From the NCBI GenBank assembly GCA_964554645.1, contig CAZKPK010000003.1, positions 4,256-68,255 of the forward strand: a DNA stretch of 64,000 bases, read 5' to 3'. The DNA comes from an uncultured Candidatus Saccharibacteria bacterium (lineage in GTDB: Bacteria; Patescibacteriota; Minisyncoccia; Phycocordibacterales; UBA9973). The number at the start of each line of letters is the position of its first letter. Positions within the stretch are counted from its first letter, which is position 1. Of the stretch, positions 329 to 50,175 are shown one piece after another. The notes below the pieces were generated by a model. That model saw only the letters and a program-made list of their open reading frames with translations, had not been told where the DNA came from and ran no database searches. The translations under genes and the position numbers were made by a program.

Positions 329-607
329 ATGAGATATAATGTGGAGGGTCAACCTTCCGAAAAAGAAATAGTAAAGAAAAGATTACTTAAAATTAAACGA
401 GAATCTTTGGATGTAGATAAAGACAATATACAGCCTATCATAAAAGACTTGGAGTGGTATCTTGATTTAAAAAGGAAAGAAAAAGTAAATCTGCATATAC
501 CTATCAATGACCTTGATTTATGGAACACGATGAGTGTAGTGTATAAAGATTTTAACGAAGAAGAACTCGAGGACCTAATAAATCATCTGAAAGGTGCTAA
601 TAACTAA
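329..607 (+). CDS. hypothetical small protein (occupies the position normally held by rpmA after rplU)
   Basis: 92-aa ORF with normal composition, no recognisable motif. Confidence 0.35.
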   Translation: MRYNVEGQPSEKEIVKKRLLKIKRESLDVDKDNIQPIIKDLEWYLDLKRKEKVNLHIPINDLDLWNTMSVVYKDFNEEELEDLINHLKGANN

Positions 608-680
608 GTCTTGTCTTGTAAGATAAGATGCAGGGATAACCTCTCACCAGCTGGTTTCTTTAATTTGTAAAAAATATGTT

Positions 681-714
681 ATACTCAAATTATGCTATCG
701 CGGAATTTGAGTAT
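681..714. repeat. palindrome ATACTCAAATT-N12-AATTTGAGTAT overlapping the start codon of the 692 gene
   Basis: Perfect 11-bp arms; ATG at 692 lies inside the element. Confidence 0.7.
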
Positions 715-1192
715 TGGAGATAAAATTTTAAAACTTTTACTTGAGCCGACACACCGATATAAAGGCATACCGGTCAGTATGTTTGGCTTACCCATTTTAT
801 TTCCATACAAAAAGCAATCCATCTATAACACTCTTTCAAGATTAAATAAAGACGGTTATATATCAAAAGAAAATGATTATATATGCTTACTTCCAAGAGG
901 AAGAAAATATGTCGAAAATAAAAAAGTAAGATTTGCAACATTTGATTCACCTTATAAAAAAGAGTCTTCAAAAAATTTACTTTTAATGTTTGATATTCCA
1001 GAAGTCAAAAAAGCAGAAAGGGAATGGTTTCGTTTCCATTTGCGGCTGTTCAGTTATGAAATGATTCAGAAAAGTGTTTGGGTCGGACCGTCTCCACTGC
1101 CGAAGGATTTTATAGATTATGTAAAAGAAATCAAGCTTCAGGAATGCATTAAAACCTTCAAACTGGCTAAACCTTACAATACTCAAACTTAG
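692..1192 (+). CDS. winged-helix transcriptional regulator with C-terminal Cas2/VapD-like domain (PaaX-like architecture)
   Basis: N-terminal wHTH-like region. C-terminal LLLMFDIPE..KAEREWFRFHLRLFSYEMIQKSVWVGP fits the Cas2-like beta-alpha-beta pattern. Start and stop codons both lie inside flanking palindromes. Confidence 0.45.
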   Translation: MLSRNLSIGDKILKLLLEPTHRYKGIPVSMFGLPILFPYKKQSIYNTLSRLNKDGYISKENDYICLLPRGRKYVENKKVRFATFDSPYKKESSKNLLLMFDIPEVKKAEREWFRFHLRLFSYEMIQKSVWVGPSPLPKDFIDYVKEIKLQECIKTFKLAKPYNTQT

Positions 1193-1213
1193 CGATAGCA
1201 GAAATTGAGTATT
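1178..1213. repeat. inverted partner palindrome AATACTCAAACTT-N-AAATTGAGTATT overlapping the stop codon of the 692 gene
   Basis: Close reverse complement of the 681-714 element with the same GCGATAGC core; the TAG stop at 1190-1192 lies inside it. Confidence 0.7.
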
Positions 1214-9290: not shown

Positions 9291-9337
9291 AAACTTATAA
9301 CTCCACAATAGCAGAAACTTAAGTAAAAACACAAATT

Positions 9338-9367
9338 CCATAATAGCAACGGTCGTTGCTATTATGG
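9338..9367. repeat. family A intergenic palindrome CCATAATAGCAACGG-CCGTTGCTATTATGG type (copy 1)
   Basis: 14-bp perfect arms between convergent genes. Confidence 0.8.
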
Positions 9368-9589
9368 TAACAAGATTAAAAGTAAAAAATACAAAAGGGC
9401 GGGTCGTTTTCTTAAACGAGCACCGCCCAAGTTGTGCGTTTGGCAAGAACGCGATGTTAGGCCTTCTTTCTTTCCCCACAATGGACGCAGTAGAAGCCGG
9501 GGACACATCCCCAGTCACCCCTGGGCCACCTGATGCGATCTTCCTTGGTTTCTTTCCATATGTGTTTTCCCGTTGGGGATTTTTTACAT

Positions 9590-14501: not shown

Positions 14502-15070
14502 ATTTAGAATCAAAAATAGAAGCGATATTATTTTGGAAAGGAGAACCGGTTTCCTCAAAACGATTACAGGATATTTTGAAAGTTTCCAAAGAAGAAATTT
14601 TAAATGCTATTTCAAAACTGAAAGAAAATTTGGCAAATAGGGGAGTAGCGCTGGTAGAAAAAGACGGCGAATTTACGTTGGGCACTGCGCCGGAATTGAC
14701 CCAAATTATTGAAAATCTACAGAAAGAAGAATTAAACAAAGAACTTTCCAAGGCGAGTTTAGAAACATTATCTATTGTGCTTTATAAATCTGGAGTGAGC
14801 CGGGCGGAAATAGATTATATCCGGGGAGTGAATTCCAGTTTTACTTTACGCGCGTTGTCTGTCCGCGGACTTATAGAAAGGACAGAAGATCCTAAAGACC
14901 ATAGACGCTTTATATATAAACCCAATTTTGAGCTAATGTCTTATATGGGAATAAAATCTATAGAGGAATTACCGGATTATATGGAAGTGAAAAATTCGAT
15001 GGATATTGTAGCTAAAAATTTGGAAAATTTTTCTGACCAAGAAGCGGGAGAGAGTCAAAATGAAAACTGA
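14498..15070 (+). CDS. scpB: segregation and condensation protein B
   Basis: IEAILFWKGEPVSSKRL... tandem wHTH; overlaps scpA by 4 nt. Confidence 0.8.
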   Translation: MNLESKIEAILFWKGEPVSSKRLQDILKVSKEEILNAISKLKENLANRGVALVEKDGEFTLGTAPELTQIIENLQKEELNKELSKASLETLSIVLYKSGVSRAEIDYIRGVNSSFTLRALSVRGLIERTEDPKDHRRFIYKPNFELMSYMGIKSIEELPDYMEVKNSMDIVAKNLENFSDQEAGESQNEN

Positions 15071-15082
15071 TTGAGATAACAC

Positions 15083-15106
15083 AATAGCAACGGCCGTTCC
15101 TATTAT
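15083..15106. repeat. family A palindrome (copy 2, AATAGCAACGGCCGTTCCTATTAT)
   Basis: Sequence match to the other copies. Confidence 0.7.
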
Positions 15107-15119
15107 ACTATGATGCAAA

Positions 15120-16676
15120 GTGAAACCAAAATACGCTCTGGATTCCGGAATAATTATTTATTGCAACAAATGTTGGTGGAGCGACAAATGGGATGCAAAA
15201 AATTATGGAATGGATTATGATTTTTCCAGACCATTTTTTGTCCAATTCAGAGAACTCATAGGCAAAGTCCCGCATATTTCTGTGGTCAATGACGATGGCA
15301 TCGCGAGCGTAAACTGCGAATATACCCACGACTGGTGGTTTTCTAAGAATTGTTATATGAGTTTTTCCGGCTGGTATGTGGAAAATGTAATGTATAGCTT
15401 CTTTATGTTAGCTGGCCGAGACATGATGGACTGCATGAATATCAGATCAAAAAACGAATGGCTATATGAGTGCATGATTGCCAGAAGTTGCTATCAATTA
15501 AAATATTCTCAATTCTGCTGGGCTTGCATTGATTCACAATTTTTATTTGACTGTAGAAACTGTTCTAACTGCTTTATGTGTGCCGGTCTCAGGGGGAAAA
15601 AATATTATTTTAAAAACAAAGAATATTCAAAAGAAGAATATCAAAAGATTTTAGAAAGTTATCAACTTAACACATTTTCCGGAGTGGAAAAAGCGCAAAA
15701 AGAATATGATGAATTTATTTTGAAATACCCTCGAATGCACTTGCATTCCATTCAGAACGTTAATTGCATTGGTGATGTTGTCTCACTTTCTAAAAATGTG
15801 AAATATTGCTTTGTAGCCAGAGAATGTGAAAATTGTAGGTATTGCGATTTTTTTTCAAATGATAAAGAATGTTATGACCTAGTAATGACTGGCGAGACCT
15901 CAGAAAGTTATGAAGGAGTCGTAGTTGATCAATCTCAACTTAATCTTTTCGGAATTTTTTCCGTTAAAAGCCAAGATATAAAATATATGCAACATTGCCA
16001 TAATTGTAAGCATTGTTTTGGTTGTGTCGGGCTTCGCGATTCAAATTACTGCATTTTTAATAAGCAATATACTAAAGAAGAATATGAAAAATTGGCACCG
16101 AAAATTATAGAGCAGATGAATAACATGCCTTTTATAGACAAAATTGGAAATAAATATAAATATGGAGAATTTTATCCGATAGAACTTTAACCTTTTGGCT
16201 ACAATGAAACTTTAGCCATGGAAGATATAGTTTTATCAAAAGAAGGGGCTCTTAAAAGGGGATTCAACTGGCAGAACAATGTCCAACAAACTACTGGCAA
16301 AGAAACACTGAAAGCAGAAAATATTCCTGACAGCATAAATGAGATAGGGGATTCAATATTAAATGAAGTGTTTGCCTGCGTTGATTGTAAAAGAAATTAT
16401 AAAATTATTCCGAATGAACTTATTTTTTACAGAAAAATGAAAATTCCTATCCCACGGAGATGTTTCTATTGTCGGCATGCGAATAGATTAAAGAAAAGAA
16501 ATCCCTTTAAACTTTGGCATAGGACTTGTATGTGTGGTTCGACGGGTTCACCACAGGCGACAACGGATCATTCCCATGGAGAAAATAGATGCGAAGTGGA
16601 ATTTGAAACTTCCTATGCTCCAGACCGTCCGGAAATAGTGTATTGTGAAAAATGTTATCAGCAAGAAATATATTAG
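15120..16676 (+). pseudogene. degraded paralog of the 48403-50139 Cys-rich repeat protein: N-terminal zinc ribbon missing, single in-frame TAA at 16188-16190
   Basis: ORFs 15120-16190 and 16218-16676 are in the same frame and align end to end with the 578-aa protein (CRNCSNCFMCAGLRGKKYYFKNKEYSKEEY; C-terminal FKTSYAPDRPEIVYCEKCYQQEIY). They are separated only by a TAA. A family A repeat sits where the N-terminal 70 codons would be. Confidence 0.55.
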
Positions 16677-32012: not shown

Positions 32013-33254
32013 TTAAATTACTGATCGTTTCCAATTATTTAATATAATTAAACCAATGATAACAAATATAGTCATAGCACCTACGGCGACACGATAAGCA
32101 ATGATTCGGGTGTCCATAGCCCAAATTATTCCTCCCCAAGTCAGTGGTCCAACTAAAGTTGCAAAACGTTCGGCTATTGTATAAAAAGAAAATCCATATC
32201 CCATATCCTTTTTTGGTAAGACAAGAGTCAAGTATGCGCGAGTAACCGTCCATACAGAACCCACAAGTAACCCAATAAGAGGTGTTAATATGGACACTGT
32301 GAGAAAATTGGGCGCCAGTGCTAGTAAAGGAAGGGCAACAATCCAACCCAACAAAATAAATTTTAAAGTCTTCAATGCGCCTATTTTGTCTCCCAACCAA
32401 CCAGCAATAATACTTCCAATGGCAGACATTATTAAAATTACAAGAAGTAAAATTGATTTAGCATTGTCTGGGGTCTGAAAAACCCTTTCTAGATAAATTG
32501 AATAGTTGTTGCTAACAGTCAATAATGCATCATTAAAAAAGAAGAAAGCAATTAGCATGGGAGTAGCGGCTGAAGCTGTAAAAAATATAATCATTTTTTT
32601 AATTGAAGTTCTTATTTCATTTTGAATTAAAGAAGATCTGATTTGTTCAACATATTTTTTTGATTCTTTAAAAAATATCATCATGGGAAGCGCAAGAATA
32701 AAGAAGACCGGTACAGATATCAGTAAAGGTGTAATACGAGAACCGGCAAATGGAAGTGTAATCAAAATACCCACCACAAAACCCAAAGAGCTTAAAAAAT
32801 TTCCGATTCCTGAAACTCGAGATTTATTGGTTTCATCTGTAATATCGTCTAACATTGGATTATAAAAAACAAAAGAAAGCTGATAAAAATATTGTCCAAT
32901 TAGAAAGAAAAGAGCGATCAATAAAATATTACTCTCCATCTTTGCCAAAATAGCAACTAGCCCATAGGACAGAAAAGTGCCAATTGTGGCAATATTTAGC
33001 CAATATTTTCTACCGCCACGTAAATCAGTTCGAGTTGCTAATATTGGAGCTGTAAACAAAAGAATAATCGTAGTTATTGCAAAAATCGCATTATACCAAA
33101 AGTCTGACAATCCACCATCGACTACAATCCAGACCGCAAAATAAAGGATGAAGTTTATATAAACAATAGAATTTGCAAAATCATAAAGTGACCAAAAGAA
33201 TAGTTGTTTTTTATTCATATACATAATTCTATCATAAAATAAATGCTGTATCAA
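32013..33254 (-). CDS. polytopic transporter, probably MFS
   Basis: About 12 TM helices, two-fold repeat. Confidence 0.5.
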   Translation of the reverse strand: MIQHLFYDRIMYMNKKQLFFWSLYDFANSIVYINFILYFAVWIVVDGGLSDFWYNAIFAITTIILLFTAPILATRTDLRGGRKYWLNIATIGTFLSYGLVAILAKMESNILLIALFFLIGQYFYQLSFVFYNPMLDDITDETNKSRVSGIGNFLSSLGFVVGILITLPFAGSRITPLLISVPVFFILALPMMIFFKESKKYVEQIRSSLIQNEIRTSIKKMIIFFTASAATPMLIAFFFFNDALLTVSNNYSIYLERVFQTPDNAKSILLLVILIMSAIGSIIAGWLGDKIGALKTLKFILLGWIVALPLLALAPNFLTVSILTPLIGLLVGSVWTVTRAYLTLVLPKKDMGYGFSFYTIAERFATLVGPLTWGGIIWAMDTRIIAYRVAVGAMTIFVIIGLIILNNWKRSVI

Positions 33255-33313
33255 AAAAACAAAATGTTTTCTAATGACACATTATGCGATAGCAAAATTT
33301 GTCGCTACTGTTA

Positions 33314-39200: not shown

Positions 39201-40811
39201 TTATTCAAATTCGGTCGTGGCTGGGGGTTTGGGAGTCATATCAAAAAATACGCGGACGATGTTTTTGTGTTTGGTGAGAGCGCTGGTGATTTCATTCACC
39301 ACTTCTTCGGGAAAATAATAGCCCTTGGCGGTCATAAAATCAGATGTTTGCACGGCACGCACAACCAGAGAATGGCCATAGACTCTTTCGTCCCCTTTCA
39401 CTCCGACGGAATTAATGCCCAGAAGCGCGACGATAAGTTGGGAAATATTTTTGGTGAGATTATATTTTTTTAGAATATCGGTTACGGTTTTGTCCGCTTG
39501 GCGCACTAGTTCAATATTCTCTTTTGAGACTGGCGCGCCGACTACTCGCAGGTATAGACCCGGACCGGGAAAAGGATGGCGTTCATATACAGCGGGCGGA
39601 AGATTAAGCGCGCGGGCAAGTTCGCGGATTTCATATTTGAATAAATTTCTGAATGGATGCAAATCATTCACTTTCCACGAAAGTCCCACATTGTGGTGCG
39701 TTTTTATCATTGTTGATTCCCCTGCTTTGCCACTTTCAATGATGTCGGTCGCCAAGGTCCCCTGCGCAATAAAGCCGGCATTATATTTTATTATTTCTTT
39801 TTCGAATATTTTTTGATACACAGCGCGAAACTTCGCGCGTTTTTTTTCTCCGTCGATTGTCGCGCTGATATTTTTTATAAACTCCTTTCCGGCTCTAATC
39901 ACAACAAGTTTTTTTATTCCCGCATTTCTTGTATTTTCTTTCAATTCTTCAATCTCATTCGCTCGCAATCCACCAGTGTCTATCGCCACGCCAATCAGCC
40001 TTTTTCTCAAAACTGGAGCCAGAATAGCAGCCAGAGTGGTTGAATCCACTCCGCCCGAAACGCCCAAAATCATATTTTGTTTTTTTACCTCACCCTTTCT
40101 TCCTCTCCTATCAGGAGAGGGCTGGGGAGAGGTTACTATTGCCAAAACCTCTTTCTGAATCTGGTGAATCAAATTTCTTGGATCCCAATCTTTTCTACAA
40201 TCAGCAATGTTCAAGAAATTCTGTAGCATTTTTTTGCCCTCTCTTGTATTAACAACTTCGGGATGAAATTGGATTCCCATTACCCTATTACTCATATCAG
40301 CCATGGCTGATATGCTGCCGGATGCGCCAATTGAAATAAAGTTTTTTGGAAGTTTAGTGACAGTATCTCCATGACTTGCCCAGACTTCTGTTTTTTTCTG
40401 CACTCCACCAAAGAGAGGATGTGTAGTATCTAGTGTAACTTCAGCTGGTCCATACTCACGGTGTTCGTGCGGTTTACTCACCAGACCCCCAAGCTTATGC
40501 GCCAGAAGTTGCATACCGTAACAAATACCCAAGATGAAATATTTTTTACCGGAAACATCAAGCGAGTTTGGAAATTCCGGAGCCTCATGGCTATGAACAC
40601 TCCAATTACTGCCGGAAAGAATAACCGCTTTGGGAGTGTTATTTTTTAGCCACCGGTCTGCTTTTTTTAGCGGTAATATTATACTTCGCACGCCAAGCTC
40701 GCGCAGAGTTCTTCCGATAACTAGCGTGTATTGCGATCCGTAATCCACGATCAAGATTTGTATGTTATCCATAATAGAAAATTTATTTATAAAAATCTTT
40801 ACGGTGTCCAA
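39201..40811 (-). CDS. guaA: GMP synthase (glutamine-hydrolysing)
   Basis: Class I GATase (GICYGMQ...H) plus PP-loop SGGVDS and GMP synthase C-terminal domain. Confidence 0.9.
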   Translation of the reverse strand: MDTVKIFINKFSIMDNIQILIVDYGSQYTLVIGRTLRELGVRSIILPLKKADRWLKNNTPKAVILSGSNWSVHSHEAPEFPNSLDVSGKKYFILGICYGMQLLAHKLGGLVSKPHEHREYGPAEVTLDTTHPLFGGVQKKTEVWASHGDTVTKLPKNFISIGASGSISAMADMSNRVMGIQFHPEVVNTREGKKMLQNFLNIADCRKDWDPRNLIHQIQKEVLAIVTSPQPSPDRRGRKGEVKKQNMILGVSGGVDSTTLAAILAPVLRKRLIGVAIDTGGLRANEIEELKENTRNAGIKKLVVIRAGKEFIKNISATIDGEKKRAKFRAVYQKIFEKEIIKYNAGFIAQGTLATDIIESGKAGESTMIKTHHNVGLSWKVNDLHPFRNLFKYEIRELARALNLPPAVYERHPFPGPGLYLRVVGAPVSKENIELVRQADKTVTDILKKYNLTKNISQLIVALLGINSVGVKGDERVYGHSLVVRAVQTSDFMTAKGYYFPEEVVNEITSALTKHKNIVRVFFDMTPKPPATTEFE

Positions 40812-44249: not shown

Positions 44250-44266
44250 ATTTAAATTTAGTAATG

Positions 44267-44296
44267 CCATAATAACAACGGCCGTTGCTATTATGG
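44267..44296. repeat. family A palindrome (copy 5, CCATAATAACAACGGCCGTTGCTATTATGG)
   Basis: Lies between convergent purA and purD. Confidence 0.8.
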
Positions 44297-44304
44297 TATC
44301 TTCT

Positions 44305-50139: not shown

Positions 50140-50175
50140 AATAGTATAATAGACACGGCCGTTGCTATTGTGCTA
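50136..50175. repeat. family A palindrome (copy 6, ..ATAATAGACACGGCCGTTGCTATTGTG..)
   Basis: Downstream of the purL stop. Confidence 0.65.

What the first reader, a model, noticed from the sequence alone, without database searches (positions are those of the whole stretch)
681..1213. Regulator gene exactly bounded by mutually inverted palindromes that contain its own start and stop codons
The PaaX-like/Cas2-like wHTH gene (692-1192) begins inside ATACTCAAATT-ATGCTATCGCGG-AATTTGAGTAT. It ends inside the reverse-complementary AATACTCAAACT-TAGCGATAGCAG-AAATTGAGTATT. Each is itself a palindrome, and the two are inverted copies of one another. An extended -10 (TGTTATACT) sits 6 nt before the ATG, so the transcript is leaderless and the 5' palindrome covers +1. 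This layout suggests an autoregulatory operator pair or a gene cassette delimited by recombination sites. The Cas2-like fold with no CRISPR array in the window is itself a little unusual.
Basis: partly seen in the sequence, partly recalled or inferred. Interest (0 to 1): 0.55.

Follow-up and report, generated by a model that had tools for sequence, protein, structure and literature searches.

The report
Regulator gene bracketed by own operators
A small PaaX-like DNA-binding regulator gene in a Candidatus Nomurabacteria genome has the same 34-bp palindrome over its start and its stop; this start-and-stop layout recurs in relatives, each with its own palindrome, so the two sites are most likely the protein's own operators, not recombination sites.

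Summary
A 34-bp palindrome at 681-714 contains the ATG, and a second copy at 1179-1212 contains the TAG. No other copy occurs in 64 kb (0.01 expected).

The gene (692-1192) encodes a winged-helix domain plus a PaaX_M (Cas2-like) domain. It is a short PaaX-type regulator, not a CRISPR Cas2.

Among 80 homologous loci from other Patescibacteria, at least 64 have a site of this geometry at the 5' end, 62 at the 3' end, and 52 at both. The core GC-nATn-GC is constant. The outer 7-9 bp differ between paralogs but match between the two ends of each gene (15.3/18 against 8.1/18; 0 of 10,000 permutations).

Each paralog type has its own conserved gene neighbourhood, so the unit is not mobile. The relative orientation of the two sites is not conserved, so they are not recombination sites. 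Stem positions 8-13 pair poorly and show no G:U bias, which argues against an RNA hairpin.

The 5' site overlaps a conserved extended -10 and a leaderless start, which implies autorepression. ATACTCAA-type sites also lie inside miaA and upstream of Cys-rich protein genes and ruvC in relatives, which suggests a small regulon.

The role of the 3' site is unresolved; looping or a roadblock are the candidates. This is a new variant of a known kind.

The parts
677..685 (+). Extended -10 promoter element TGTTATACT (TG at 677-678, hexamer TATACT at 680-685). Its last 5 bases are the first 5 bases of the 5' palindrome.
   Evidence: Sequence. TGyTATACT is conserved in 9 of 10 ATACTCAA-type genes. Across the family, -10-like hexamers lie 4-9 nt before the ATG in 52 of 63 genes, against 14.6% for control ATGs.
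681..714 (.). 5' operator: a 34-bp palindrome (15+4+15), ATACTCAAATTATGC-TATC-GCGGAATTTGAGTAT. It covers the -10, the predicted +1 and codons 1-8.
   Evidence: The same site sits at the same position in 8 of the 10 orthologous loci L001-L010.
692..1192 (+). CDS of 166 aa, a short PaaX-like regulator. The ATG at 692 is the predicted first base of a leaderless mRNA. The TAG stop is at 1190-1192.
   Evidence: The ATG departs from the family's inner consensus CTGC and is conserved only at the regulator's own 5' sites.
713..925 (+). [quoted passage not shown] The predicted recognition helix is residues 41-53 and the wing is 57-66. This is the variable, specificity-determining part.
   Evidence: AF2 model. 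Mean pairwise identity among 74 family members is 0.39. The recognition-helix motif tracks the arm type.
971..1177 (+). C-terminal Cas2-like (PaaX_M) ferredoxin-fold domain (residues about 94-162), presumed to mediate dimerisation. It is nearly invariant among paralogs.
   Evidence: PF20803 at E 6.5e-11. Beta-alpha-beta-beta-alpha-beta topology in the model. Foldseek hits to PaaX, VapD and Cas2. Mean pairwise identity 0.73.
1179..1212 (.). 3' operator: a second 34-bp copy, ATACTCAAACTTAGC-GATA-GCAGAAATTGAGTAT. It contains the last codons (NTQT) and the TAG stop, and fills most of the 45-bp gap to the convergent recR gene.
   Evidence: A 3' site is present in 62 of 80 family loci. No intrinsic terminator is called here.
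33273..33306 (.). Possible operator of a different paralog (AGTGACA type): AATGACACATTATGC-GATA-GCAAAATTTGTCGCT, with 11 of 15 positions paired. It lies between the purC stop and the start of an MFS transporter gene. It is not bound by the protein under study; it is listed as evidence that such sites also serve other genes.
   Evidence: It is weaker than the two main sites and fails the strict outer-arm filter.

Best explanation
The gene encodes a short PaaX-type transcription factor: an N-terminal winged helix and a Cas2-like dimerisation domain, with no C-terminal ligand domain.

The protein probably binds as a dimer to a 34-bp operator. The two winged helices would read the outer 7-9 bp (ATACTCAAA and TTTGAGTAT), which lie about 2.5 helical turns apart. 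The invariant centre GC-nATn-GC would be read by a part of the protein shared by all paralogs; I infer this is the nearly invariant Cas2-like core.

The 5' operator covers the extended -10 and the +1/ATG of a leaderless promoter. Bound protein would therefore exclude RNA polymerase, giving negative autoregulation, as is known for PaaX at its own Px promoter.

The second operator at the stop codon is kept by selection. It most likely acts in one of two ways. It could cooperate with the 5' site through a loop of about 500 bp. Or it could act as a protein roadblock that closes the transcription unit against the convergent recR gene. This step is inferred only.

The same operator type also controls a few other genes in related genomes. 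The family has diversified into dozens of paralog classes, and each class is bracketed by its own cognate operator.
For: Shown by computation:
- Domain identity.
- Family-wide bracketing. Of 80 loci, 64 have a 5' site, 62 a 3' site and 52 both. These are lower bounds, because variants with a non-GC core are missed.
- Outer arms match within a locus at 15.3/18, against 8.1/18 between loci (0 of 10,000 permutations). Inner positions match barely above background, at 9.8/12 against 8.6/12. This points to selection on binding, not recent copying.
- Pairing is 84-100% at positions 1-7 but only 46-76% at positions 8-13. Mismatches show no G:U bias (45 vs 35 at 3' sites; 38 vs 44 at 5' sites). This fits a bipartite protein site and not a hairpin.
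- The recognition-helix motif tracks the arm type. The nearest neighbour by N-domain identity has the same arm type in 43 of 74 cases, against 6% for random pairs.
- The N-terminal domain averages 39% identity and the C-terminal domain 73%. This parallels variable arms and an invariant core.
- The operator overlaps or abuts a conserved leaderless extended -10 promoter in every class.
- ATACTCAA sites occur at conserved positions in other genes. They impose the peptide YSKSAIALFEY inside miaA, while a miaA without the site reads differently at that position.

From the literature:
- PaaX represses its own promoter by steric hindrance, and it binds widely spaced inverted half-sites, TGATTC-N27-GAATCA (PMC9493321).
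Against: - No binding or expression data exist; everything here is comparative and comes from metagenome-assembled genomes.
- Operator position relative to the promoter varies between classes. Site centres fall at about +6 here and at about -27, -37 and -45 elsewhere. Repression is therefore inferred most safely for this orthologue group only, and activation in other classes is not excluded.
- The helical-phasing test for looping is inconclusive.
- Nothing tested here distinguishes looping from a roadblock at the 3' site.
- The correlation between arm type and the N-terminal domain is confounded by phylogeny.
- The strictly conserved Cas2-type Asp (D101) leaves a catalytic role open.
Confidence: 0.7

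Rival explanations
1. The two palindromes are recombination or transposition ends. On this reading they are lox-like 13-8-13 sites or terminal inverted repeats, and the gene is an invertible or excisable cassette.
For: The sites are 34 bp with symmetric arms around an asymmetric centre, and in the window they are in inverted orientation. The gene is bounded exactly by them. Cys-rich genes in relatives also sit between family-type palindromes, for example between purL-like and purQ-like genes in L105 and L168.
Against: - The orthologue group keeps the order rplU - gene - recR - dnaB - trpS down to about 55-60% identity of the housekeeping proteins. The gene has the same orientation in all loci.
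- Every other arm type also has its own conserved neighbourhood. For example, 10 of 10 pairs share neighbours within the AGTGACA group, against 21 of 872 pairs between groups.
- The relative orientation of the cores is mixed: 20 inverted, 15 direct, 7 symmetric.
- No recombinase or transposase lies adjacent.
- The ORF created by a hypothetical inversion is not conserved; it runs 2 to 72 codons.
Confidence: 0.05
2. The palindromes act as RNA hairpins. They could be a bidirectional terminator or a stabiliser at the 3' end, or a processing or translation element at intergenic sites. The Cas2/VapD-like domain might bind or cut the hairpin.
For: The 3' element folds at -12.6 kcal/mol (z = -3.0) and -16.2 kcal/mol on the other strand, and is followed by UUUUGG. 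In 35 of 61 loci the 3' site fills a tight gap between convergent genes, where a terminator is expected. VapD and Cas2 relatives are nucleases.
Against: - Stem positions 8-13 pair in only 46-76% of sites, and mismatches show no G:U preference on either strand.
- The outer arm sequence is conserved as sequence within a type, with no compensatory drift.
- In most paralogs the 5' site lies upstream of the -10, so it is not part of the gene's own mRNA.
- No terminator is called at the 3' site, and U-tracts are not consistent across loci.
- A hairpin alone does not explain why the arms must match the paralog's recognition helix.
Confidence: 0.1
3. The protein is a site-specific nuclease or nickase. 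The Cas2-like domain would be catalytically active and would cut at the conserved GC-nATn-GC core.
For: The Cas2-type Asp at the end of strand beta-1 (D101 in MFDIPE) and many neighbouring residues are invariant across paralogs. The C-terminal domain is far more conserved than the DNA-binding domain. Weak Cas2 profile matches exist.
Against: - The sites sit at stable, conserved chromosomal positions, including inside an essential-type gene (miaA), with no sign of breakage or rearrangement.
- The closest structural and profile match is the PaaX repressor, in which this domain is a dimerisation module.
- The sites coincide with promoters.
Confidence: 0.05
4. The palindrome is a generic dispersed intergenic repeat (REP/BIME-like) that happens to flank this gene.
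For: In a metagenome scan, 47 of 114 ATACTCAA-type occurrences have no family gene nearby.
Against: - Those occurrences fall into a few conserved contexts: 22 inside miaA at one codon position, 10 upstream of Cys-rich genes, 3 at the 3' ends of such genes, 2 between ruvB and ruvC, and 9 other.
- The window holds only the two copies in 64 kb.
- Arm type co-varies with the adjacent protein.
Confidence: 0.03

Closest known systems
PaaX, the GntR-type phenylacetyl-CoA-responsive repressor of the paa catabolon (E. coli W, Pseudomonas; PDB 8a39, 3l09)
   Same: - It has an N-terminal winged helix followed by the Cas2-like middle domain. PF20803 is met, and 8a39 is the best Foldseek hit.
- It represses its own promoter by steric hindrance.
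- Its operator is made of two short inverted half-sites far apart, TGATTC-N27-GAATCA (PMC9493321). This compares with 7-9 bp arms spaced 16-20 bp apart here.
   Different: - The protein here has no PaaX C-terminal ligand domain; it ends at residue 166.
- TIGR02277 scores 22.7 bits against a cutoff of 264.55.
- No paa genes lie nearby.
- The operator is 34 bp with a conserved central GC-nATn-GC.
- There are two operators, one at each end of the gene.
- The family is expanded into many paralogs with different specificities in Patescibacteria.
CRISPR-associated Cas2 (and VapD)
   Same: The C-terminal domain has the ferredoxin-like beta-alpha-beta-beta-alpha-beta fold and the beta-1 Asp motif. Several sources annotate family members as 'Cas2'.
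   Different: Cas2 profiles score below their cutoffs: PF09827 at 19.4 bits against 23.8, and TIGR01573 at 20.9 against 24.5. The domain is fused to a wHTH. The window has no CRISPR array, and no cas1 lies among the ORFs within about 6 kb. The 'Cas2' annotation is a misnomer.
Auxiliary-operator (looping) repressors such as LacI (O1 and O2 about 400 bp downstream) and GalR (OE and OI); named from general knowledge
   Same: A second cognate operator lies hundreds of bp downstream of the promoter-proximal one. Here the distance is 498 bp, and 498-625 bp across the family.
   Different: Here the distal operator sits at or after the stop codon of the regulator's own gene, and this holds across a whole family. 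Tetramerisation is unknown, and phasing evidence is inconclusive.
Roadblock repression by intragenic operators (for example CcpA cre sites or CodY and PurR boxes inside coding regions); named from general knowledge
   Same: ATACTCAA-type sites lie inside the miaA coding sequence in about 22 metagenomic contigs. The regulator's own 3' site lies at the end of its transcription unit.
   Different: No transcript data are available. This is an analogy only.

Membership tests
PaaX-like regulators (Pfam PaaX_M, PF20803) | Central Cas2-like domain scoring above the Pfam gathering threshold | tested here: met
   42.6 bits against a cutoff of 24, E 6.5e-11, residues 97-159. All listed homologues carry PF20803.
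PaaX-like regulators | [quoted passage not shown] | tested here: met
   The AF2 model has helices 8-17, 41-53 and 68-78, with a beta wing at 57-66. Foldseek aligns both domains to PaaX 8a39 and to Rv0674 3kfw. There is a weak PadR hit at residues 40-61.
PaaX proper (TIGR02277 equivalog, phenylacetyl-CoA sensor) | Full-length match including the C-terminal ligand-binding domain | tested here: not met
   22.7 bits against a cutoff of 264.55. Only model positions 33-148 of 279 are matched, and the protein ends at residue 166.
PaaX proper | Association with paa catabolic genes | tested here: not met
   The neighbours are rplU, a 92-aa ORF, recR, dnaB and trpS, in the window and in the orthologues.
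Autoregulated repressor with a palindromic operator | Cognate palindrome overlapping the regulator's own promoter or +1 | tested here: met
   The site at 681-714 covers the -10 (680-685) and the ATG (692). This is conserved in the orthologues. In other classes the site abuts the -10.
Autoregulated repressor with a palindromic operator | Protein binds the operator and lowers transcription | not testable with these tools
   This needs EMSA or footprinting and in vitro transcription or a reporter assay.
CRISPR Cas2 | Profile match above threshold, and association with cas1 or a CRISPR array | tested here: not met
   PF09827 scores 19.4 against 23.8, and TIGR01573 scores 20.9 against 24.5. The window has no array and no CRISPR-DR Rfam hit.
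Site-specific recombination cassette (lox/dif/attC-like) | Consistent relative orientation of the asymmetric cores, plus evidence of rearrangement or variable context | tested here: not met
   Orientation is 20 inverted, 15 direct, 7 symmetric and 10 other. Gene neighbourhood is conserved. No recombinase lies adjacent.
REP/RAYT-type or IS200/IS605-type palindrome-flanked elements | HUH transposase, and many dispersed copies of the palindrome | tested here: not met
   The protein is wHTH plus PaaX_M. There are 2 copies in 64 kb. Extra copies in relatives sit at a few conserved positions.
Intrinsic (Rho-independent) terminator, for the 3' element | GC-rich stem followed by a U-tract | tested here: not met
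   The scan calls no terminator in 550-1350. The stem has internal mismatches, and the tail is UUUUGG only. Tails are not consistently U-rich across loci.

The most novel reading that the evidence does not exclude
In Patescibacteria, a large family of wHTH plus Cas2-like proteins may use pairs of cognate 34-bp operators to bracket transcription units. The promoter-proximal copy would act as a repressor site. The distal copy would act as a protein-dependent boundary, either a roadblock terminator or insulator, or a loop anchor, in genomes with almost no intergenic space. The invariant Cas2-like dimer itself would read the invariant GC-nATn-GC centre of the site, and the variable winged helices would read the variable arms. 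That would be a previously undescribed DNA-binding use of the Cas2 fold and a natural recognition-code series of 30 or more specificities.
Probability: 0.2. Interest if true: 0.7.

Novelty: new variant of a known kind. Interest (0 to 1): 0.5.

Why it matters
Almost nothing is known about transcription control in Patescibacteria (the Candidate Phyla Radiation). This family supplies three things.
- A recognisable regulator class, currently mis-annotated as 'Cas2' or 'hypothetical'.
- Predicted operators and promoters (leaderless, extended -10) that can be tested with cloned DNA, without culturing the organism.
- A natural series of 30 or more protein-operator pairs. In these pairs the variable winged helix tracks the variable arms and the invariant Cas2-like domain tracks the invariant core, which suits the derivation of a recognition code.

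The conserved second operator at the stop codon of the regulator's own gene is an unusual architecture, and its function (looping or roadblock) is open.

Tried and rejected
- **Other family genes in the window.** tblastn found none. A weak hit at 14534-14860 proved to be ScpB.
- **Mobile cassette or invertible switch.** Rejected on conserved gene neighbourhood, mixed core orientation and a non-conserved post-inversion ORF.
- **RNA hairpin or terminator.** No G:U bias and poorly paired inner stem positions. No terminator call.
- **Helical phasing of the distance between the 5' and 3' sites, as a looping signature.** Inconclusive. Distances cluster at 541-566 bp because gene lengths are similar, and the Rayleigh p-value depends on the period chosen.
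- **Correlation of arm identity with domain identity.** Weak and confounded by phylogeny (rho 0.21 for the N-terminal domain against 0.16 for the C-terminal domain). The nearest-neighbour and motif table is more informative.
- **Literature.** Searches for PaaX with Cas2 and winged helix, PaaX with Patescibacteria, CPR regulators with palindromes, and Cas2-like with HTH found no description of this family.
- **PDB sequence search.** No hit.
- **PHROGs and PADLOC.** PHROGs gave no hit. PADLOC gave only weak Cas2 matches to the C-terminal domain.
- **ATACTCAA sites at the window's own Cys-rich genes.** Absent. Those genes carry a different palindrome.
Full report
**1. The observation**

The sequence is as described. 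The 5' element at 681-714 is ATACTCAAATT-ATGCTATCGCGG-AATTTGAGTAT. Its 11-bp arms are perfect (I12), and the ATG lies at 692. The 3' element at 1179-1212 is ATACTCAAACTTAGCGATAGCAGAAATTGAGTAT. It holds the last codons (N-T-Q-T) and the TAG at 1190-1192.

The two elements match as an inverted repeat over 36 nt at 86%. They also match as a direct repeat over 35 nt at 80%. Each is almost self-symmetric, so the 'inverted' relation rests mainly on the central TATC versus GATA.

The pattern TACTCAA-N(12-22)-TTGAGTA occurs exactly twice in 64 kb, against 0.01 expected. A geometry-based scan finds 2 sites against 0.13 in shuffles.

The best description of each element is a 34-bp site of 15+4+15 bp. 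GC sits at positions 14-15 and 20-21, around a central nATn.

**2. The protein**

ORF 692-1192 (166 aa) matches PaaX_M, the 'PaaX central Cas2-like domain' (PF20803; 42.6 bits against a cutoff of 24). It matches PaaX (TIGR02277) and Cas2 (PF09827, TIGR01573) only below their cutoffs.

An AlphaFold2 model (mean pLDDT 78.7) shows two domains:
- A winged helix: helices 8-17, 41-53 and 68-78, with a wing at 57-66.
- A beta-alpha-beta-beta-alpha-beta ferredoxin-like domain at residues 94-162.

Foldseek ranks E. coli PaaX (8a39) first, then the PaaX-like Rv0674, VapD and many Cas2 chains. The E-values are weak, but they agree with the profile hit.

The window contains no CRISPR array and no CRISPR-DR RNA family. 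The protein is therefore a truncated PaaX-type regulator. The 'Cas2' names given by some sources are misnomers.

The exact protein is on record from a Candidatus Nomurabacteria MAG (HYW72_01900). The family is large. It has more than 1,500 hits in the 90% clusters. In the 50% clusters it has 1,469 representatives at E ≤ 1e-3 and 360 at E ≤ 1e-10, and the best-scoring ones listed are mostly 150-200 aa.

**3. The key comparative result**

I fetched 80 homologous loci from GTDB species genomes. All are Patescibacteria, and several genomes carry 2-3 paralogs. I scanned them for 34-bp sites of the same geometry.

- 64 loci have such a site at the 5' end, 62 at the 3' end, and 52 at both.
- These are lower bounds. 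Some loci with a different core, such as AAAC-GATC-GTTT in L077, also carry matching palindromes on both sides.

The core is shared across the family (GC-nATn-GC, mostly TATC or GATA). The outer 7-9 bp differ from paralog to paralog. Examples are ATACTCA, TGACACA, AGTGACA, TACTTAA, GTTAACA, ATAATCA, CTCACCA and TACATAT; 40 distinct outer 7-mers occur among 74 genes.

Within a locus, the 5' and 3' arms agree at 15.3 of 18 positions. Between loci they agree at 8.1 of 18 (0 of 10,000 permutations). The less constrained inner positions agree barely above background (9.8/12 against 8.6/12). The two copies are therefore kept alike by selection on the arms, and not by recent duplication or gene conversion.

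**4. DNA operator or hairpin**

Per-position analysis of 126 sites gives the following:
- Positions 1-7 pair in 84-100% of sites.
- Positions 8-13 pair in only 46-76% of sites.
- Mismatches show no G:U preference on either strand (45 vs 35 at 3' sites; 38 vs 44 at 5' sites).

Within a type, the arm is conserved as sequence, with no compensatory drift. This is the signature of a bipartite protein-binding site. It does not fit a selected RNA or DNA stem.

The protein mirrors the split in the DNA. The N-terminal domain is variable (mean pairwise identity 0.39) and the Cas2-like domain is nearly invariant (0.73). The predicted recognition-helix motif changes with arm type:
- YKKQS-INNxLxRLNK goes with ATACTCA.
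- YSKRS-LRSSxDRL goes with TGACACA.
- YKRNS-INxALxRLKKK goes with AGTGACA.
- YSxNS-LSGTLSY goes with TACTTAA.

The nearest neighbour by N-domain identity has the same arm type in 43 of 74 cases, against 6% for random pairs. This correlation is partly phylogenetic.

Known PaaX binds two 6-bp inverted half-sites 27 bp apart and represses its own promoter by steric hindrance (review PMC9493321). The geometry here, outer arms about 16-20 bp apart, is of the same kind.

**5. Promoter context**

In the window's orthologue group, TGyTATACT is conserved in 9 of 10 ATACTCAA-type genes, 6 nt before the ATG. The -10 therefore overlaps the left arm, and the predicted +1 is the A of the ATG.

In the other paralog classes the site lies just upstream of an extended -10 (TGnTATAAT or TATACT). 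The site ends 6-7 nt or about 15 nt before the hexamer, and the hexamer is followed by 4-9 nt and then the ATG.

Across the family, 52 of 63 genes have TAnnnT 4-9 nt before the ATG, against 14.6% of control ATGs. None has a Shine-Dalgarno-like motif.

In the window, the operator covers the -10 through +23, which is a repressor position.

The ATG itself departs from the family's inner consensus (CTGC becomes ATGC). This departure is seen only at the regulator's own 5' sites, which supports 692 as the true start.

**6. Not mobile, not a recombination cassette**

The orthologue group keeps the order rplU - (variable) - gene - (variable) - recR - dnaB - trpS. The gene orientation is the same throughout, down to about 55-60% identity of the flanking housekeeping proteins.

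Other arm types each have their own conserved neighbourhood. For example, 10 of 10 pairs share neighbours within AGTGACA and 16 of 28 within TGACACA, against 21 of 872 pairs between types.

The relative orientation of the asymmetric cores is 20 inverted, 15 direct, 7 symmetric and 10 other. 'Mutually inverted' is therefore not a rule of the family.

A hypothetical inversion between the cores gives an ORF of 72 codons in the window but only 2-36 codons in orthologues.

**7. The palindrome is not private to the gene**

A metagenome scan for TACTCAA-N5-GCnATnGC-N5-TTGAGTA found 106 stretches. The 114 occurrences break down as follows (protein identities):
- 17 are 5' sites of a family gene.
- 28 are 3' sites of a family gene.
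- 22 are too close to a contig end to judge.
- 47 have no family gene nearby.

Those 47 fall into a few conserved contexts:
- 22 lie inside miaA (IPPT) at one codon position.
- 10 lie 8-47 nt upstream of genes for Cys-rich proteins of about 560 aa.
- 3 lie at the 3' ends of such genes.
- 2 lie between ruvB and ruvC.
- 9 are in other contexts.

Inside miaA the palindrome imposes the peptide YSKSAIALFEY. A miaA without the site reads LASDHVLMLRL at that position, and the synonymous positions that vary still keep GCnATnGC.

Other genes also end in '...TQT*' inside an ATACTCAA left arm (L105 and L168). A stop codon inside the palindrome therefore reflects tight gene packing and is not special to this gene.

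This pattern fits a small regulon.

In the window's own genome segment, the two Cys-rich paralogs lack ATACTCAA sites and carry a different palindrome.

**8. The 3' site**

The downstream neighbour is convergent in 35 of 61 loci, often 1-30 nt from the site, and co-directional in 26. The 3' copy is therefore not generally a promoter operator for the next gene.

It is not a canonical terminator. Its arms are nevertheless under the same selection as those of the 5' copy.

The two mechanisms I consider most likely are cooperative looping with the 5' operator (498 bp apart here; 498-625 bp in the family) and a protein roadblock that closes the unit. The intragenic miaA sites make a roadblock capability plausible. 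The phasing test is inconclusive. This step is inference only.

**9. Verdict**

The recombination reading and the 'odd Cas2' reading are not supported.

I found no description of this family or its bracketing architecture in the searchable literature. I rate it a new variant of a known kind (a PaaX-type autoregulated repressor) and of moderate interest. The main open question is what the conserved distal operator and the invariant Cas2-like domain do.

Noticed in passing
window 9337-9370, 15077-15110, 44265-44298, 50142-50175: A second palindrome class has the core AGCAACGG(C/T)CGTTGCT, with 7 strand-matches against 0.13 expected. The copies at 15077 and 50142 sit directly upstream of the two Cys-rich paralog genes. 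Each is followed by TATTATACT, a few nt and then the ATG, which looks leaderless. The copies at 9337 and 44265 (CCATAATAnCAACGGyCGTTGCTATTATGG) lie in intergenic or convergent gaps. This is probably the operator of another, unidentified regulator.
   Followed up: partly
window 33273-33306: A family-type 34-bp site of a different specificity (AGTGACA-like, 11 of 15 positions paired) lies between the purC stop and the start of an MFS transporter gene (32013-33254, minus strand). It implies that another paralog of the regulator exists elsewhere in this genome.
   Followed up: partly
L081 2252-2285 and about 21 other metagenome loci (for example L083, L085, L099, L135, L138, L152): An ATACTCAA-type palindrome is embedded in the miaA coding sequence and imposes the peptide YSKSAIALFEY. 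It is absent from the miaA of L097, which reads differently at that position. It may be an intragenic roadblock operator.
   Followed up: partly
L105 1061-2821, L159 7780-9569, L097 2518-4443, L168 3980-5709: Genes for Cys-rich proteins of about 560 aa (weak treble-clef zinc-finger matches) are flanked by family-type palindromes of two different specificities: ATACTCAA at the 5' end and AGTGACA or TGACACA at the 3' end. In L105 and L168 the gene sits between purL-like and purQ-like genes.
   Followed up: partly
window 15120-16190 and 16218-16676: The second Cys-rich paralog aligns as one protein (tblastn residues 71-568) but is split into two ORFs. This could be a frameshift, a pseudogene or an assembly error.
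   Followed up: no
window 59743-59853 (minus strand): A LOOT RNA (RF03000) scores 74.7 bits against a gathering score of 46.4. A tRNA lies at 62605-62675.
   Followed up: no
window 329-607: A 92-aa ORF between rplU and the regulator has no Pfam, NCBIfam or PHROG match. This interval is variable in the orthologous loci.
   Followed up: no
window 40293-40314: A perfect 22-bp palindrome, CATATCAGCCATGGCTGATATG, was found during the core-motif scan.
   Followed up: no
window 707-715: The right arm TTGAGTATT aligns with the ATGAGTATT (M-S-I) start of most paralogs. This orthologue group therefore carries a 5-residue N-terminal extension (MLSxN), created by placing the ATG inside the operator. Some database entries start at the MSI position instead.
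   Followed up: partly
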